Below, piece after piece: positions 51,279-58,687 of a stretch of 64,000 nt of DNA. Position numbers and translations under genes: made by a program. The notes below the pieces were generated by a model. It searched no databases, was not told the origin of the DNA, and was given only the letters and a program-made list of their open reading frames with translations. This DNA is from a virus (lineage: Duplodnaviria; Caudoviricetes). The stretch covers positions 32,001 through 96,000 of the IMG/VR virus record IMGVR_UViG_3300033463_000039, one strand, 5' to 3'. Each line of letters begins with the position of its first letter. Position 1 is the stretch's first letter.

Positions 51279-52005
51279 TGAGATGTCCAGGCGAAAACTT
51301 TTTAAGAGTACTTAAAAAATTTTTTCCCAAAAATGTACCCCATTAGAGTTCCTAAATGGTACGTTTGCGTAGTACATAGCATTGGAATAAAGGAGAGTAC
51401 TAAAAGAGGATTGGAATAAAAAGAACAAGAAAAATAAAAAATAATTATTCAACATTTTTCTAAAAGTTTTTTATTTTATTTTTAAAATAAAAATTATTAA
51501 TGATCGGCTTGCTTGCGGTTATGGCAAGCCGAATTTTACAGTTTACATAATGACTAAACTTTTTTGCGAACAAAAATTTGTTTTTTTACAAATGTTTTAA
51601 ATTCCTAAAACTCTTGTGTCTGTAGGTTTCCGCTTCAGTACAGTAATCAAAAAGCGAACATTTGTTTGGTTTACATAATTTATTATTTTGCGAGTTACCA
51701 AATTTTACCAATCCGCTTCAAACCTTACTCTAACAAGGCTTACACGCTTTAAAAAATATTTTAAAAAAGTTACGGAAAAAGTATTGACAAAGGTTCGTTA
51801 ATAATGTATAATAGTATTAAGTTAAGAGAGAGAACAAACAAAGAACAAAAACAACAAAACTAATAAAAGATAATAACAAAGAAAAGACAAAGACAAACAA
51901 AAGATTTTGTAACAAAAATGTAATAAAATAAATAACAAAAACTTATTGACAAAACATAATAAAAAGATTATAATTAAGATAACAAAAGGAAAGGAAAAAA
52001 AGAAA

Positions 52006-52233
52006 ATGAAAGATTTAAATAATAATGAAAGAAATGAGAAAAAATTAGGAATTGCAAAATTTATGAAAAGAAGTGATTTTGGTTTGTATGATTTAAGAAT
52101 AATAAATGATGAAGATTACTTTGACAAAGAAGATGATTGTGGAATAATGTTCTTTTCTAAAAAAGGTATGACAGACTTTTTAAAAGAAGAATTCGAAAAT
52201 TACAAGTTTACATTAGTAGAATTAAAGGCTTAA
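52006..52233 (+). CDS. Small hypothetical early protein (75 aa)
   Basis: ATG at 52006 after AAAGGA. It has its own promoter and a following hairpin with U tract. The track start lies inside the promoter. Confidence 0.75.
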   Translation: MKDLNNNERNEKKLGIAKFMKRSDFGLYDLRIINDEDYFDKEDDCGIMFFSKKGMTDFLKEEFENYKFTLVELKA

Positions 52234-52358
52234 CAAAAGCCTTTTTTCTCTAACATCTATTGACAAATAAAAACTTTAATGATAAAATAATAATAACGAA
52301 AGAAAAGAAAAAGAAAGCAAAGTAAACATAATTAGATAGAAAAGGAATTGAATTGATT

Positions 52359-52847
52359 ATGAAAAAAATATTTTTAGATTTAGATGGAACATTAGCAAAA
52401 TTTAATGTTAGAAATGCAATAGAAAGATTTGCAATTGAAGAAGGTTTTTTCGCAAAACTTGGAGCATACAAAGGAATTGAAAACATAGATGAATTAGCAA
52501 AAAATGGAAATGTTTACATTATTTCTGCAAGTCCAAACGAGCAAGCAGACAAAGATAAGTTGACATGGATTGATAAGTTCTTACCAAACTTGCCAAAAGC
52601 AAACATTTGTTTTTGTAGATTAGGAAAAAATAAAGCGAAAGAAATAAAAAAGAATTTTAACATACAAATAAATAAAGAATGTATTTTACTAGATGATTAT
52701 ACTAAGAACTTAGTAGAATGGGAAAGCGTTGGCGGAGTAGGGATTAAGAGATTAACTTCTGTTGCTGATAACAAAAGTGGAAAATGGAAAGGATTAGCAA
52801 TTAGAAACTTAAGAGAACTAAAAGGCGCATTAACTCTTGTAACATAA
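52359..52847 (+). CDS. HAD-superfamily 5'(3')-deoxyribonucleotidase-like phosphatase
   Basis: Motifs IFLDLDGTL, IISASP, K..WI and ILLDDY..NL.EW...GG.GI. Confidence 0.85.
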   Translation: MKKIFLDLDGTLAKFNVRNAIERFAIEEGFFAKLGAYKGIENIDELAKNGNVYIISASPNEQADKDKLTWIDKFLPNLPKANICFCRLGKNKAKEIKKNFNIQINKECILLDDYTKNLVEWESVGGVGIKRLTSVADNKSGKWKGLAIRNLRELKGALTLVT

Positions 52848-52936
52848 ATGTAATATTTATTTTTTAAAAAAAGTGTTGACAAATAAAAATAAAAATAGTA
52901 TAATGTAATCAAGTTAAGAGGAAAGGAAAAAAACAA

Positions 52937-53149
52937 ATGAAAAATTTAAGTGATAAAACAAAAGTAGAAATAATGGTAGGAAAATTAGTAATCTTCTTAT
53001 TAAAAAGTGTAATTGCCTTTGGTGCTTTACTAATTGGAATTTGGTTAGTTTGTCAAATTTATAATTTTGTACTAATTCACACTTGGGCATTTATAGTTTT
53101 AGGAATAGTTGACATAATTCTATTTATTGTTTTCATAATCAGAGGTTAA
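52937..53149 (+). CDS. Small two-TM membrane protein
   Basis: 70 aa with two hydrophobic segments, its own promoter and a terminator at 53150-53174. Confidence 0.75.
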   Translation: MKNLSDKTKVEIMVGKLVIFLLKSVIAFGALLIGIWLVCQIYNFVLIHTWAFIVLGIVDIILFIVFIIRG

Positions 53150-53536
53150 AAGCGGGCGGCAACCCCGCTTTTTTCTTGGCTTTGCGGAAGGCTGTAACCC
53201 TTGCAGCTGTAAGGCTTTTGCGCAACGGCGCGCTACCGATTGAATTTAATGAAGCGCGCCGAGTTTACATAATATTAGTACCGAACAGATTTTCGGAACG
53301 GGAAACCCTTGCTACACTTGGGTTTGCAATCTCCTGAAAGTGCCGCTTCTACTGAGGTAGCGAAAACCGAACATTTGTTTGGTAGCACTGAACACGCGTT
53401 TGGGTTTACATAATTTTGTAACATTATTGTAATATTTCTGTAACAAAAATGTAATAAAAAAAATTGTAAAAACTATTGCAATTTTTTTTATTTATGATAT
53501 AATTAAGACAATGAAACGGGAGGAGAAAAACAAAAA

Positions 53537-56127: not shown

Positions 56128-56439
56128 TCTCAAAGCCTAGAGCCACAAAGGTTCTAGGCATTTTTTTTTGTCTCAAAAACAAACATTTGTTCGGGCGGGC
56201 GGCGCGTGGGTGGCCGCTCTGATGTACTGCGCGCCGCGTTTACATAATAACTTAACTTTTATACATTTTTAACTGGCAGCCGCGAACATTTGTGTGGTTT
56301 TAAAACTCCTAAAATTAAGCGTTTGAGCCATTTTTTTTTTATTTTTGCGATAATGACATCATTTTTCAAAAATTTTTAAAATCTGCTTGACAAACTAAAT
56401 AAATTTTGATATACTTTAAGTAAAGAAAGGAAGGGAAAA

Positions 56440-56940
56440 ATGAAAGAATTAGAAATTTTAAAAAATGGAATGGTTAACATAATTGAAATCTATCAAAATT
56501 TTGTAAATAAAATTGATGATACTATTGAAATTAAACAAGGTGAAGACTACACTGCAAGCCTTGAAGACTGGGACATTGAGATACCTTTAATCGTAAGCGA
56601 GAGTAACACTGATAAGTTTATGCTAAGTGTTAGGGAAATGAGCTATTCTAACGACCTTGTAAACTCAATAGACGCAAGTGTTTGGAGCTTTTTACATGAA
56701 ATTGGTCATTTACAAACTAGACAAGGCGATTTAAAATCAAAAGTTATAAGATTTTTAAGTCATAGATTTAAAAGTCCATTACAAGATAAAATTTACTATA
56801 ATATTCCAGAAGAATTAAACGCAACAGAATGGGCAGTAAATTATGTAAACCTAAATTGGTATGAAGTAAAAGCCTTTGAACAAGAGCTTTTGAAGGCTTA
56901 TGAAACCCTTTATACTAAAGTACTTGCGGAGGCTGTTTAA
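56440..56940 (+). CDS. HExxH zinc metallopeptidase (ImmA/IrrE-like), paralog 2
   Basis: SFLHEIGH...PEELNATEWA. Confidence 0.7.
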   Translation: MKELEILKNGMVNIIEIYQNFVNKIDDTIEIKQGEDYTASLEDWDIEIPLIVSESNTDKFMLSVREMSYSNDLVNSIDASVWSFLHEIGHLQTRQGDLKSKVIRFLSHRFKSPLQDKIYYNIPEELNATEWAVNYVNLNWYEVKAFEQELLKAYETLYTKVLAEAV

Positions 56941-57298
56941 GCCTCTTTTTTTATGTAAACCTACAGATCTTCACCGGTGCGCAATTATGTAAACCAAATG
57001 GCAAATCCTGCCTTTTCTGCTTAACAAAAAAAGTTCAGTATTTATGCGGCTTCCGCGTCTTTTTCAAAAAAATTTAAAAAAAGTGTTGACATTTAAAAAG
57101 TAAAATGTTATAATAATTATAATGAAAGAGAGAGAAAAAAACAAAAATCTTTTTCAAAAAAAATTTTTTAAAAAACTTTTAAAAACCTATTGACATTTAA
57201 AAATTAAAATGTTATAATAATTATAACAAAAGCAATAAACAACCTTGAGAATTGCTTGAAAAGGTTCATAAATTAACATAAAAAGGGAGGAATTGAAA

Positions 57299-57661
57299 AT
57301 GGAAAACAAAAAAGTTACAAAAAGAGAATACTATGGAATGATTTTAGGAATGGCTGAAGTTCAAGAAAGACAAGACTTAGTAGATTTTATCAATCATGAA
57401 ATTGAATTATTAGACAAAAAAGCAAGTGCTAAAAGACCTACAAAAGTTCAAATCGAAAATGAAAACATAAAAGGAATAATCCTTGAAACACTTGAAAATC
57501 TAGGCAAAGCAGTTTCTATCTCTGAAATGCAAGAAGCAAATGAAGATTTAGCAATATTATCAAATCAAAAAATTAGTGCTTTATTAACTCAATTAGTAAA
57601 GGCTGAAAAGGTTGCAAGAGTAGAAGATAAAAGAAAAACACTTTTCAAAATTGCAGACTAG
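57299..57661 (+). CDS. Winged-helix protein, family A copy 2
   Basis: Shares LLDKKASAKRPTKVQIENENIKG and LAILSNQKISALLTQLV with copy 1. Confidence 0.8.
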   Translation: MENKKVTKREYYGMILGMAEVQERQDLVDFINHEIELLDKKASAKRPTKVQIENENIKGIILETLENLGKAVSISEMQEANEDLAILSNQKISALLTQLVKAEKVARVEDKRKTLFKIAD

Positions 57662-57772
57662 AAATTAAGGCGGGTAAGCCTTGCCCGCCCGCCTACTTTT
57701 TTAAAAAAACTATTGACATTTAATTATTAAAATGATATAATTACAATAGTGAAAGGGTAAGAGTGAAAAAAA

Positions 57773-58156
57773 ATGAAAAATAAAAAAGATATTAAAATAC
57801 CAAAAAATTACATTGAGCAAGCTATGAAAAGCCTTGATATTACTGAAGAAGAGGCTATCCAAATGTATTTAGAAGATGAAGGCATTGAAATCAATGAAGA
57901 ACAAGAGAGATTATGTAAACTTGCAAAAGAAAACAAAACAGGCGCAAAAGCAGATAAAAAGCCAAGAAAACCAACAGAGCGCAAACCTAAAGAAAATCCA
58001 ATAAAAGAACAAATAATTAAAGAAATTTACCAAATTTTAGAAAAAAATAACAATTATTGTAATATTTTGGTAACAAATTCAACTAAAACTATTGATTTTT
58101 CAATAGAAAATAGAAATTTTACAATAAATTTAATAGAACACAGACAAAAAAAGTAA
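57773..58156 (+). CDS. Hypothetical protein, family B copy 1
   Basis: MKSLDITEEEAIQMYLEDEGIEINEEQE, shared with the 60147-60644 product. Confidence 0.8.
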   Translation: MKNKKDIKIPKNYIEQAMKSLDITEEEAIQMYLEDEGIEINEEQERLCKLAKENKTGAKADKKPRKPTERKPKENPIKEQIIKEIYQILEKNNNYCNILVTNSTKTIDFSIENRNFTINLIEHRQKK

Positions 58157-58687
58157 GAAATTGTCCTAAAACTTGCGGAAACCGCTTGTTTTAGGGCTTT
58201 TTTATTGCATTTTGCATAATAAGTTTACATAATTCAGCGGGCCGCGGACACCGGTGCGGCTCCGTTTGCAGGTTTACATAACAACTTTACATATTTTAAT
58301 GTCAAAAAATAGTTTACATAATAATTATACATAATCCCAAAATAGAGGGCGAACCCATGTTCGACCGCAAGGCTCCTTGAGGCCGACCGCGACTATATGG
58401 CCAAGTTTTTTAGGCTTAGTTGGGCCGCTTCGCGTTCAATAATATTTTTCCCGAAAACATAGGGTACCTTTAGGTTTATATAACACCTAAACATAAAATT
58501 TTAATTTTATGAAGCGGCCGCACTCGGTAGGAAGATTATATGGTCTAAATTTAGAATATTTTATTTGGAGATTTTAATCCCTAACGCAACACAGTATTAT
58601 ATGATTGATTATTATAAATTTTTATGATATAATTAAAAGGGAATATAATATAATATATATAATATTATTATTTATATGTCAATAGAA

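What the first reader, a model, noticed from the sequence alone, without database searches (positions are those of the whole stretch)
51540..58321. At least 11 orphan XerD/RipX half-sites with no XerC arm
Seen: (A/G/C)GTTTACATAA is concentrated in this 7 kb, often just 3' of a GC hairpin, with two more near-copies inside CDSs (53836, 56841). Known: its reverse complement is the RipX/XerD arm of B. subtilis dif, and XerD bound at non-dif sites unloads SMC complexes in B. subtilis. No copy has a recognisable CodV/XerC arm 6 bp away. Inference: the phage may recruit host XerD without recombination, to strip SMC or SMC-family defence complexes (Wadjet-like) from its DNA. Alternatively the motif is a phage operator.
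Basis: partly seen in the sequence, partly recalled or inferred. Interest (0 to 1): 0.75.

Follow-up and report, generated by a model that had tools for sequence, protein, structure and literature searches.

The report
Host XerD-type half-sites in phage island
A large gut or rumen phage carries 15 exact copies of the DNA word that the bacterial protein XerD reads at the chromosome-resolution site dif. They sit among its first-expressed genes, and the same word is arrayed in unrelated phages and in Clostridia chromosomes, so a host protein, probably XerD, most likely reads it, though no binding has been shown.

Summary
**Observation: confirmed.**
- GTTTACATAA occurs 15 times in the window against 0.3 expected.
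- All copies lie in 51541-58321. Eleven are intergenic and four are written through coding sequence in three different frames.
- Only one more copy exists in the rest of the 118-kb phage record.
- The conserved core is (A/G)GTTTACATAAT. Nothing is conserved where a XerC arm would lie.

**Setting.**
- The array fills a plus-strand island of small genes with ten perfect sigma-70 promoters.
- The island avoids the TGA=Trp recoding used by the flanking late genes.
- It looks like an early host-takeover block resembling the T5 pre-early region.

**Who reads the motif.** A host factor fits better than a phage operator:
- The same word is arrayed in a phi29-like phage, in 182-kb and 290-kb phages, and in a relative with only 39% terminase identity.
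- In at least 25 Oscillospirales genomes a tandem pair sits just upstream of xerD.
- Rumen Lachnospiraceae chromosomes are enriched for it.
- The phage has no tyrosine recombinase.
- Its winged-helix-like candidate is absent from the other array-bearing phages.

**Limits.**
- XerD binding is inferred from sequence only.
- The SMC or Wadjet-stripping idea has no support here.
- The scan noted the same 11-mer array before on other DNA (e1-1066944).

The parts
51541..51551 (+). Motif copy GTTTACATAAT, intergenic, 8 nt after a 9-bp GC hairpin (51504-51532). It lies in the divergent gap between the late and early blocks.
51669..51679 (+). Motif copy, intergenic, directly preceded by the LexA-like box CGAACATTTGTTTG (51655-51668).
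53263..53273 (+). Motif copy, intergenic, 1 nt after a 9-bp GC hairpin. It follows the cassette group 52006-53149.
53404..53414 (+). Motif copy, intergenic, preceded by two LexA-like boxes (53368-53381 and 53389-53402). It is followed by TGTAAC/TGTAAT direct repeats and then the next promoter.
53837..53847 (+). Motif copy inside CDS 53537-54001, read as V-Y-I.
54827..54837 (+). Motif copy 28 nt after the stop of the exonuclease-like gene, behind a GC-rich stretch. It lies 40 nt upstream of the -35 hexamer at 54867.
55655..55664 (-). Motif copy inside CDS 55220-55699. The plus strand reads L-C-K.
56238..56248 (+). Motif copy, intergenic, abutting a 9-11-bp GC hairpin. LexA-like boxes lie at 56180-56193 and 56283-56296.
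56841..56850 (-). Motif copy inside CDS 56440-56940. The plus strand reads Y-V-N.
56951..56994 (-). Two intergenic motif copies (56951-56960 and 56985-56994), direct repeats 34 nt apart, just after the terminator of gene 56440-56940.
57911..57920 (-). Motif copy inside CDS 57773-58156. The plus strand reads L-C-K.
58223..58321 (+). Three motif copies (58223, 58272, 58312). The first two flank a GC hairpin as direct repeats. TTTACATA and TATACATAAT variants follow at 13-14-nt spacing. This closes the island.
58350..58363 (.). Perfect LexA/Cheo-type palindrome CGAACCCATGTTCG next to the last motif cluster. Nine of 14 such boxes (up to 2 mismatches) in the window lie in 51567-58363.
51784..58156 (+). 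Early gene island.
- It has ten 12/12 TTGACA-N17-TATAAT promoters and about ten small genes with no in-frame TGA.
- 52359-52847: NT5C-type 5'-deoxynucleotidase.
- 54107-54799: DnaQ-like exonuclease (phrog_20187).
- 55768-56127 and 57299-57661: a paralogue pair.
- 55220-55699 and 56440-56940: both carry an HExxH-like motif.
46989..48746 (-). Large terminase subunit, which needs TGA read as Trp. It starts the minus-strand late block on the left flank and was used to fetch 52 relatives.
61630..62475 (-). Phage sigma-70-family factor (regions 2, 3 and 4) on the right flank.

Best explanation
**What it is.**
- The 15 copies of (A/G)GTTTACATAAT are binding sites for a sequence-specific DNA-binding protein supplied by the host.
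- The host is most likely a gut or rumen member of the Clostridia.
- The protein is most probably the host XerD recombinase, because the word is letter for letter the XerD arm of dif.

**Where the sites sit.**
- They lie at and inside the gene cassettes of the phage's early host-takeover island.
- That island is read by the host RNA polymerase and the host genetic code as soon as the DNA enters.

**How it works.**
- No site has a XerC arm or a conserved central region, and the phage has no recombinase.
- The bound protein is therefore expected to sit on the DNA without cutting it.
- It would act as a DNA-bound mark, boundary or roadblock, in the way XerD-only XDS sites act on the B. subtilis chromosome.

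**Shown and inferred.**
- Shown: the array, its confinement to the early island, the lack of a partner arm, and the recurrence of the word in unrelated phages and in host-type chromosomes, including upstream of xerD.
For: 1. **Array and confinement.** There are 15 copies against 0.3 expected, all within 7 kb.
2. **DNA-level selection.**
   - Copies inside CDS use three frames.
   - In Lachnospiraceae strain AD3010 the same word is written through glycosyltransferase and YfhO genes in four frame and strand combinations.
3. **XerD-arm identity.** The word equals the XerD arm of published dif sites (PMC2731167).
4. **Recurrence in other phages.**
   - Agate-like relatives carry 15-24 copies each (L026, L097, L160, L069, L167, G013).
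   - A 118-kb phage with 39% terminase identity has the same island layout (G014).
   - A phi29-like 14.9-kb phage has three copies in each inverted terminal repeat.
   - Arrays also occur in 182-kb and 290-kb phages.
5. **Bacterial genomes.**
   - Matches to the tandem pattern are dominated by Lachnospiraceae and Oscillospiraceae.
   - In at least 25 genomes the pair GTTTACATAA-N3/4-GTTTACATAA lies 0.2-1 kb upstream of xerD and in the same orientation. It also sits just upstream of a -35-like TTG hexamer.
   - The gene is xerD by TIGR02225 (354.6 bits against a cut-off of 329.6). XerD identity across these genomes falls to 44%.
6. **Chromosomal enrichment.** AD3010 has 59 copies against 7 of the reversed control. 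Strain G41 has 44 against 18.
7. **No phage recombinase.** PF00589 finds nothing in six frames.
8. **Phage candidate fails.** The paralogue 55768-56127 is absent from G011, G012, G014 and G015, and it is present in relatives that lack the array.
9. **A second host-factor-like site.** LexA-type boxes travel with the motif in this phage and in G014.
Against: - No binding data exist, and the host and its dif site are unknown.
- None of the motif copies examined in five Clostridia genomes had a convincing XerC arm, so the dif XerD arm of this host group was not established.
- The closest relatives by terminase (80-82% identity), including three complete genomes, lack the exact word. They carry TTTACA(T/C) boxes and palindromes such as TTGACATGTCAA and ACTTTACATGTAAAGT after their GC hairpins. 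This looks like co-evolution with a lineage-specific protein and does not fit the conserved XerD arm.
- In Lachnospiraceae the word is arrayed between housekeeping genes and through polysaccharide loci with no GC-skew switch. That is unlike the terminus-restricted XDS sites of B. subtilis and could point to another nucleoid or regulatory protein.
- In AD3010 there is no tandem pair upstream of xerD.
Confidence: 0.45

Rival explanations
1. The motif is read by a host DNA-binding protein other than XerD. Candidates are a nucleoid-associated protein, a xenogeneic-DNA binder or a global regulator of Clostridia. The phage copies those sites to plug its early island into that protein.
For: - Short arrays with 20-63-bp spacing lie between housekeeping genes (truB-ribF, GH94-pgm, argB, comM, pheA). 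One NRPS locus holds 13 copies.
- Dense copies run through two polysaccharide loci of AD3010 with no sign of a replication terminus.
- The xerD-linked pair lies upstream of a promoter-like -35 hexamer, where an activator would sit.
- LexA-like boxes show that the modules collect host-factor sites in general.
Against: - No known Firmicutes regulator consensus that I could recall matches the 11-mer. That is memory, not a test.
- The word matches the XerD arm at 10-11 of 11 positions.
- The only conserved gene linkage found is to xerD.
Confidence: 0.2
2. The motif is the operator of a phage-encoded DNA-binding protein that regulates or shuts off the early island. The resemblance to the XerD arm is then a coincidence built on a common TGTAAA/TTTACA half-site.
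For: - Relatives with 76-82% terminase identity have TTTACA(T/C) boxes enriched four- to eight-fold in the same region.
- These boxes are often perfect palindromes typical of dimeric repressors.
- The island encodes small paralogous proteins of unknown function.
- An HTH-like gene (59226-59996) lies next to the island.
Against: - The same 10-11-mer is arrayed in a phi29-like phage, in two much larger phages and in bacterial chromosomes.
- The candidate 55768-56127 is absent from four array-bearing phages. It is present at about 50% identity in relatives without the array.
- The only protein similarity found between this phage and the phi29-like group is the endolysin wall-binding domain.
Confidence: 0.15
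3. The sites are crossover points for swapping gene cassettes between phages. They would be used by a host Xer-type recombinase in an asymmetric mode, as in the R64 shufflon where only one arm is conserved, or through folded hairpins as in integron attC sites or the CTX phage attachment site.
For: - Gene order differs between this phage and L026: dmp and the exonuclease gene are swapped.
- Only those two genes, the promoters and the motif modules align at the DNA level.
- The motif follows the exonuclease stop by 22-28 nt in both phages, and follows dmp by 14 nt in L026.
- Some modules are TTATGTAAAC - GC hairpin - GTTTACATAA.
Against: - No conserved spacer or second arm exists.
- Both direct and inverted arrangements occur, at any spacing.
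- Copies inside essential-looking CDS would break those genes if they recombined.
- The 70-100-bp conserved promoters are better substrates for ordinary homologous exchange.
- No case was found of one cassette in two contexts with the junction exactly at the motif.
- The shufflon and attC comparisons are from memory.
Confidence: 0.12
4. The motif is part of the transcription terminators or RNA-processing signals that close each cassette, and acts at the RNA level.
For: - Four or five copies directly follow GC hairpins.
- In L026 several hairpins are followed by T-runs and then the motif.
Against: - Terminators do not need a fixed 11-mer.
- Five copies are on the opposite strand and four lie inside CDS.
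- The motif also occurs in the terminal repeats of a phi29-like phage and inside bacterial genes in both orientations.
Confidence: 0.04

Closest known systems
XDS sites: XerD-only, dif-like sites in the B. subtilis terminus that unload Smc-ScpAB (Karaboja et al. 2021, as summarised in PMC11840125 and PMC12322038)
   Same: - Both are XerD-arm sequences used without a working XerC partner.
- Both are multiple copies that act by binding rather than recombination.
- An artificial XDS array blocks SMC translocation (PMC11840125).
   Different: - XDS sites are chromosomal, confined to the terminus and widely spaced.
- Here the sites are on a virulent-type phage, at about 15 per 7 kb, inside an early gene island.
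- In the likely host family the same word also occurs away from any detectable terminus.
- The XDS consensus itself could not be read, because the primary paper is not held.
DnaA-box arrays in the untranslated repeat regions of the phage T5 left terminal repeat (Davison, bioRxiv 10.1101/866236)
   Same: - Both are host chromosomal-protein binding words arrayed in the first-entering, host-transcribed region of a roughly 120-kb phage.
- That region also holds a 5'-deoxynucleotidase (dmp) and very strong sigma-70 promoters.
   Different: - The word and the host protein differ.
- In T5 the boxes lie in two fixed inverted repeats, and their role in the injection stop is itself only a hypothesis.
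- A terminal repeat could not be tested here.
- No similarity to T5 structural genes was examined.
dif / XerCD chromosome-dimer resolution sites, and Xer sites linked to their recombinase gene (XerS-difSL, XerH-difH, archaeal xerA operons)
   Same: - The 11-mer equals a dif XerD arm (PMC2731167).
- A Xer-type site upstream of the xer gene is a known layout (PMC2731167 abstract; PMC11840125). It matches the Oscillospirales tandem pair.
   Different: - There is no XerC arm, no 6-bp centre and no inverted partner.
- The copies are direct repeats at 13-14-bp spacing, not a 28-bp two-armed site.
pdif modules of Acinetobacter plasmids and integron attC cassettes
   Same: Short recombinase-type sites punctuate small accessory gene cassettes whose order differs between relatives.
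   Different: - Those sites are complete two-armed or folded sites with a dedicated or host recombinase shown to act on them.
- Here only one arm exists, and no junction evidence was found.

Membership tests
dif / XerCD recombination site | An 11-bp XerD arm of the type TTATGTnAAnT | tested here: met
   TTATGTAAAC(T/C) is found in 12 of 15 copies. It is identical to arms tabulated in PMC2731167.
dif / XerCD recombination site | A XerC arm 6 bp from the XerD arm, forming a 28-bp imperfect inverted repeat | tested here: not met
   No information content beyond (a/g)GTTTACATAAT in 114 sites. There is no TTATG or TTCTA at the expected position.
dif / XerCD recombination site | Single copy at the replication terminus of a chromosome | tested here: not met
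   There are 15 copies in 7 kb of a phage genome.
XDS-type XerD-only binding sites | A XerD arm present with the XerC arm absent or degenerate | tested here: met
XDS-type XerD-only binding sites | Occupied by XerD in vivo | not testable with these tools
   This needs ChIP or EMSA. The only indirect support is the linkage of the word to xerD in at least 25 Oscillospirales genomes.
XDS-type XerD-only binding sites | Unloads or blocks Smc-ScpAB | not testable with these tools
   This needs Hi-C or SMC ChIP during infection.
IMEX-type phage attachment site (integration by host XerCD) | A dif-like two-armed attP, in double-stranded or folded single-stranded form | tested here: not met
   The window has no two-armed site and no close inverted pair. 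The layout is that of a virulent-type 118-kb phage with no integrase.
T5-like pre-early (first-step-transfer) region | A cluster of strong host-type promoters, small genes and a dmp-type 5'-deoxynucleotidase | tested here: met
   Ten 12/12 promoters. NT5C (PF06941) at E = 4.9e-10 and phrog_2643.
T5-like pre-early (first-step-transfer) region | Located in a long terminal direct repeat, with homologues of A1 and A2 | not tested
A1 and A2 were not searched for.
Integron attC / cassette array | An IntI integrase, and attC sites with RYYYAAC ... GTTRRRY cores around a folded bulged hairpin | tested here: not met
   There is no tyrosine recombinase. Only the GTT/AAC triplets agree with the remembered attC cores. 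Most copies are single or direct repeats.

The most novel reading that the evidence does not exclude
Several unrelated phages of gut and rumen Clostridia plant arrays of the host's XerD half-site on their DNA. They include 118-139-kb recoded phages, phi29-like phages that carry the sites in their terminal repeats, and jumbo phages. The arrays would recruit XerD as a non-cutting, DNA-bound factor that unloads or blocks SMC-type loop extruders, or SMC-family defences, on the entering genome. The host chromosome would use the same orphan half-sites well beyond the terminus.
Probability: 0.12. Interest if true: 0.85.

Novelty: new variant of a known kind. Interest (0 to 1): 0.62.

Why it matters
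That use of the Xer system differs from dimer resolution and from IMEX integration.
- It would extend the XerD-only XDS principle from one model chromosome to phages and to Clostridia generally.
One 10-11-bp word is selected at the DNA level in gut Clostridia and in at least four kinds of their phages. That gives a concrete bait for finding a host factor that matters early in infection.
- The word may also help assign uncultured phages to host groups.

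Tried and rejected
- **Terminal repeat or physical genome end.**
  - The contig ends overlap by about 130 bp inside the ligase gene, so the assembly is circular and uninformative.
- **Similarity to cultured phages.** Only an 80-bp match to Enterococcus phages turned up, which is not useful.
- **Rfam.** Nothing relevant in the island. One sub-threshold L20-leader match lies at 58686-58781.
- **Promoter reading.** TTTACA as a -35 hexamer or CATAAT as a -10 hexamer was rejected by eye. 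No partner hexamer stands at 16-18 nt in the contexts.
- **Target-site duplication around mobile GC hairpins.** Several hairpins are flanked by two motif copies. The arrangement is direct in some and inverted in others, and the hairpins differ in sequence, so no single element fits.
- **Replication terminus in the Lachnospiraceae cluster.** Rejected. There is no GC-skew switch and all genes are co-directional polysaccharide genes.
- **Repeated peptide (ELCK) as the cause of the bacterial enrichment.** Rejected. Four frame and strand combinations are used with identical nucleotides.
- **Search for the host-type dif.** Among motif copies in five Clostridia genomes, no convincing XerC arm was found. 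One 12-bp-armed palindrome occurs in Sporanaerobacter.
- **Papers not held.** The primary XDS paper and the B. subtilis dif paper could not be read.

Full report
**1. The observation**

GTTTACATAA occurs 15 times in the 64-kb window. A dinucleotide-preserving shuffle expects 0.30 and never gave more than 2. All copies lie between 51541 and 58321.

Allowing one mismatch adds 11 further copies in the same 7 kb, against 10 in the remaining 57 kb.

The window is bases 32001-96000 of a 117,993-bp IMG/VR virus record. The rest of that record holds one more copy of the 11-mer GTTTACATAAT, inside the NAD-ligase gene.

Ten copies are on the plus strand and five on the minus strand. Eleven are intergenic. 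Four lie inside coding sequence (53837, 55655, 56841, 57911), where they read V-Y-I, L-C-K, Y-V-N and L-C-K. One nucleotide word in three reading frames points to selection on the DNA, not on a peptide.

I pooled 114 sites from this phage and five relatives. Only (a/g)GTTTACATAAT carries information, and nothing is conserved where a central region and XerC arm would lie.

Clear GC hairpins end 0-8 nt before the motif at 51541, 53263, 56238 and 58272. A GC-rich stretch that folds no better than shuffles precedes 54827.

**2. The setting**

*The genome.*
- It uses TGA as a sense codon. Open frames of at least 150 codons cover 57 kb under the standard code and 102 kb with TGA open.
- It encodes tRNA-Trp(UCA) next to tRNA-Trp(CCA).
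[quoted passage not shown] (bioRxiv 10.1101/2021.08.26.457843). Membership was not tested.

*The island.*
- The motif array fills a plus-strand island (51.8-58.2 kb) between two minus-strand blocks.
- The left block starts with the large terminase (46989-48746) and the portal, both of which need TGA read as Trp.
- The island genes contain no in-frame TGA.
- The island has ten perfect TTGACA-N17-TATAAT promoters.
- Its small genes include:
  - an NT5C-type 5'-deoxynucleotidase (PF06941, phrog_2643);
  - a DnaQ-like exonuclease (phrog_20187);
  - two paralogue pairs.
- A sigma-70-family gene lies to the right, at 61630-62475.

This is what an early host-takeover block looks like. It can be read by host RNA polymerase and the host code before the suppressor tRNA is made.

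The nearest described analogue is the pre-early region of T5. That region also carries dmp, very strong promoters and arrays of a host protein's binding word, the DnaA box (Davison, bioRxiv 10.1101/866236). Whether the island is a terminal repeat could not be tested.

*Other repeated words in the island.*
- LexA/Cheo-type boxes: 9 of the window's 14 matches lie here, including the perfect CGAACCCATGTTCG at 58350.
- TGTAAC-N5-TGTAAT direct repeats stand upstream of several -35 hexamers.

**3. Relatives**

The terminase retrieved 52 related viral contigs.

*Relatives with the exact word.*
- Among those 52, it is arrayed only in L026 (24 copies in 6.7 kb) and L016 (2 copies).
- A pattern scan later added L097, L160, L069, L167 and G013, with 15-22 copies each.

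*Relatives without it.*
- Three complete relatives of 131-139 kb show no enrichment.
- These relatives carry TTTACA(T/C) boxes after their GC hairpins instead. The boxes are enriched four- to eight-fold in the early region, often in tandem at 11-12 nt.
- They also carry palindromes such as TTGACATGTCAA and ACTTTACATGTAAAGT.

This is the strongest point against a conserved host reader.

*Plasticity of the early region.* Between this phage and L026 only dmp, the exonuclease gene, the promoters and the motif modules align. The two genes are in the opposite order.

**4. The same word elsewhere**

Scanning viral contigs for two copies within 31 nt found at least 119 loci. Beyond the relatives, arrays occur in four other kinds of phage:
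- G014, a complete 118-kb phage with only 39% terminase identity. It has the same island layout, with about ten consensus promoters, 11 motif copies and about a dozen LexA-type boxes including perfect CGAACAAATGTTCG.
- A 14.9-kb phage with inverted terminal repeats. Its polymerase, collar, head and packaging-ATPase genes match phi29-type phages. It has three copies 45-85 nt from each end.
- A 182-kb phage (six ATTATGTAAAC within 150 bp) and a 290-kb phage (29 copies against 2 of the reversed control).

A group of phages with about 50% GC carries GTTTACATAAAC/GTTTACGTAAAC. This looks like a different, palindromic operator.

The winged-helix-like paralogue of this phage (55768-56127) is absent from G011, G012, G014 and G015. 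It is present at about 50% identity in relatives that lack the array.

The only protein similarity found between this phage and the phi29-like group is the wall-binding part of the endolysin (Amidase_2 + CW_7 + LysM). This suggests similar hosts rather than a shared DNA-binding protein.

**5. Bacterial genomes**

By my count of the listed record titles, most are Lachnospiraceae, Oscillospiraceae or other Clostridia from guts and rumens.

*Linkage to xerD.*
- In at least 25 genomes the pair GTTTACATAA-N3/4-GTTTACATAA lies 0.2-1 kb upstream of a gene, in the same orientation.
- In Oscillibacter that gene scores as XerD (TIGR02225, 354.6 bits against a cut-off of 329.6).
- The genomic context is tgt-yajC-DUF3792-[site]-(ORF)-xerD.
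- The linkage holds while XerD identity falls to 44%.
- The pair is followed by further CATAA boxes and then a -35-like TTG hexamer.
- A Xer-type site upstream of its own xer gene is a known layout for XerS, XerH and archaeal XerA (PMC2731167; PMC11840125).

*Enrichment in Lachnospiraceae.*
- Rumen strain AD3010 has 59 copies against 7 of the reversed control. Strain G41 has 44 against 18.
- In AD3010 the copies crowd two surface-polysaccharide loci. There they are written through glycosyltransferase and YfhO genes in four frame and strand combinations.
- No GC-skew switch occurs in that region.
- Other Lachnospiraceae carry 3-13 copies at 20-63-bp spacing between ordinary genes.
- AD3010 has no pair upstream of its xerD.
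- No two-armed dif was recognised among the motif copies of five genomes.

**6. Reading**

The word is a real XerD arm. dif sites ending ATTATGTAAAC(T/C) are tabulated in PMC2731167.

XerD-only, dif-like XDS sites unload Smc-ScpAB, and an artificial XDS array blocks SMC translocation (PMC11840125; PMC12322038).

Three lines point to a host-encoded reader, with XerD the leading candidate:
- the word recurs across unrelated phages and host-type chromosomes;
- it is linked to xerD;
- the phage lacks a recombinase or any shared phage candidate.

I put a host reader of any kind at about 0.65, and XerD specifically at about 0.45. Without a partner arm or a conserved centre, recombination is unlikely. 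The sites would act by occupancy.

What occupancy achieves is not shown. Possibilities include SMC unloading, a boundary between cassettes, a roadblock behind weak terminators, or titration of the protein after replication.

The rivals, in order of weight, are:
- another host protein;
- a phage operator, supported by the diverged boxes in close relatives;
- cassette-exchange sites, supported by the rearranged gene order;
- an RNA-level signal.

**7. Novelty**

I found no description of Xer half-site arrays in phage early regions in the papers searched.

Earlier notes of this scan report the same 11-mer array in another phage (e1-1066944). They also report related XerD-arm arrays in another phage and beside dif in gut bacteria (e1-3438343, e1-3593096). 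Those are unchecked AI notes and not independent evidence.

I class the finding as a new variant of a known kind: XerD-only sites, now on phages and spread through Clostridia. The caveat is that the reader protein has not been identified.

Noticed in passing
whole record G000; window 46989-51136 compared with 51946-58156: The phage reads TGA as a sense codon and encodes tRNA-Trp(UCA) next to tRNA-Trp(CCA) at genome positions 106057-106237. The early island has no in-frame TGA, while the terminase, the portal and neighbouring genes do.
   Followed up: partly
window 51567-58363: LexA/Cheo-type boxes (CGAAC-N4-GTTYG) are enriched in the island: 9 of the window's 14 matches, including one perfect palindrome at 58350-58363. 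They often stand next to the motif. The same pairing occurs in G014, a phage with 39% terminase identity (L334, L335).
   Followed up: partly
window 51907-51930, 52838-52860, 53415-53460, 54838-54860: Direct repeats TGTAAC-N5-TGTAAT, at 11-bp spacing, lie just upstream of several early -35 hexamers. From memory they fit the WalR/PhoP-type consensus TGTWAH-N5-TGTWAH. A phi29-like contig (L106) shares this module plus the promoter at 72% identity.
   Followed up: partly
L232:5213-5236 and at least 24 other loci (L189, L252, L206, L222, L260 and others): In Oscillospirales genomes a conserved tandem pair GTTTACATAA-N3/4-GTTTACATAA, with further CATAA boxes, lies 0.2-1 kb upstream of xerD in the same orientation. 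I did not find this layout described.
   Followed up: partly
L299-L302 (Lachnospiraceae bacterium AD3010, C1:212-220 kb and C8:14-63 kb): About 30 copies of the motif are written through glycosyltransferase, YfhO and sugar-nucleotide genes of two polysaccharide loci. They use four frame and strand combinations. The genome-wide count is 59 against 7 for the reversed control.
   Followed up: partly
L243:2781-3207: Thirteen co-oriented copies of AGTTTACATAAT, at roughly 32-bp or 63-bp spacing, fill an intergenic gap inside an NRPS-type locus of a Lachnospiraceae MAG.
   Followed up: no
L080 (G015), both ends: A 14.9-kb phi29-like phage has inverted terminal repeats. Each holds three TTATGTAAAC copies at 14-15-nt spacing, 45-85 nt from the end. 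This is where auxiliary origin factors would bind in protein-primed replication.
   Followed up: partly
window 55768-56127 / 57299-57661; 55220-55699 / 56440-56940; 57773-58156 / 60147-60644: The island holds paralogous gene pairs. One pair matches phrog_19455 weakly. Two proteins share an HExxH-like LHEIGH motif. The third pair shares an N-terminal 'MKSLDIT' segment across the strand switch.
   Followed up: no
L031, L032, L049, L057 early regions: In some relatives a consensus promoter fires straight into a GC hairpin followed by a T-run (TTGACA ... TATAAT, then a hairpin within about 10 nt). This suggests very short transcripts or attenuators.
   Followed up: no
same genome, several places (earlier notes e1-5841424, e1-5841448, e1-5841436): Other first-stage notes claim that in-frame CGG codons mark +1 frameshifts across this phage. 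I did not test this. Some flanking ORFs here, such as 48727-49581 and 49544-50062, do overlap in a way that could fit.
   Followed up: no
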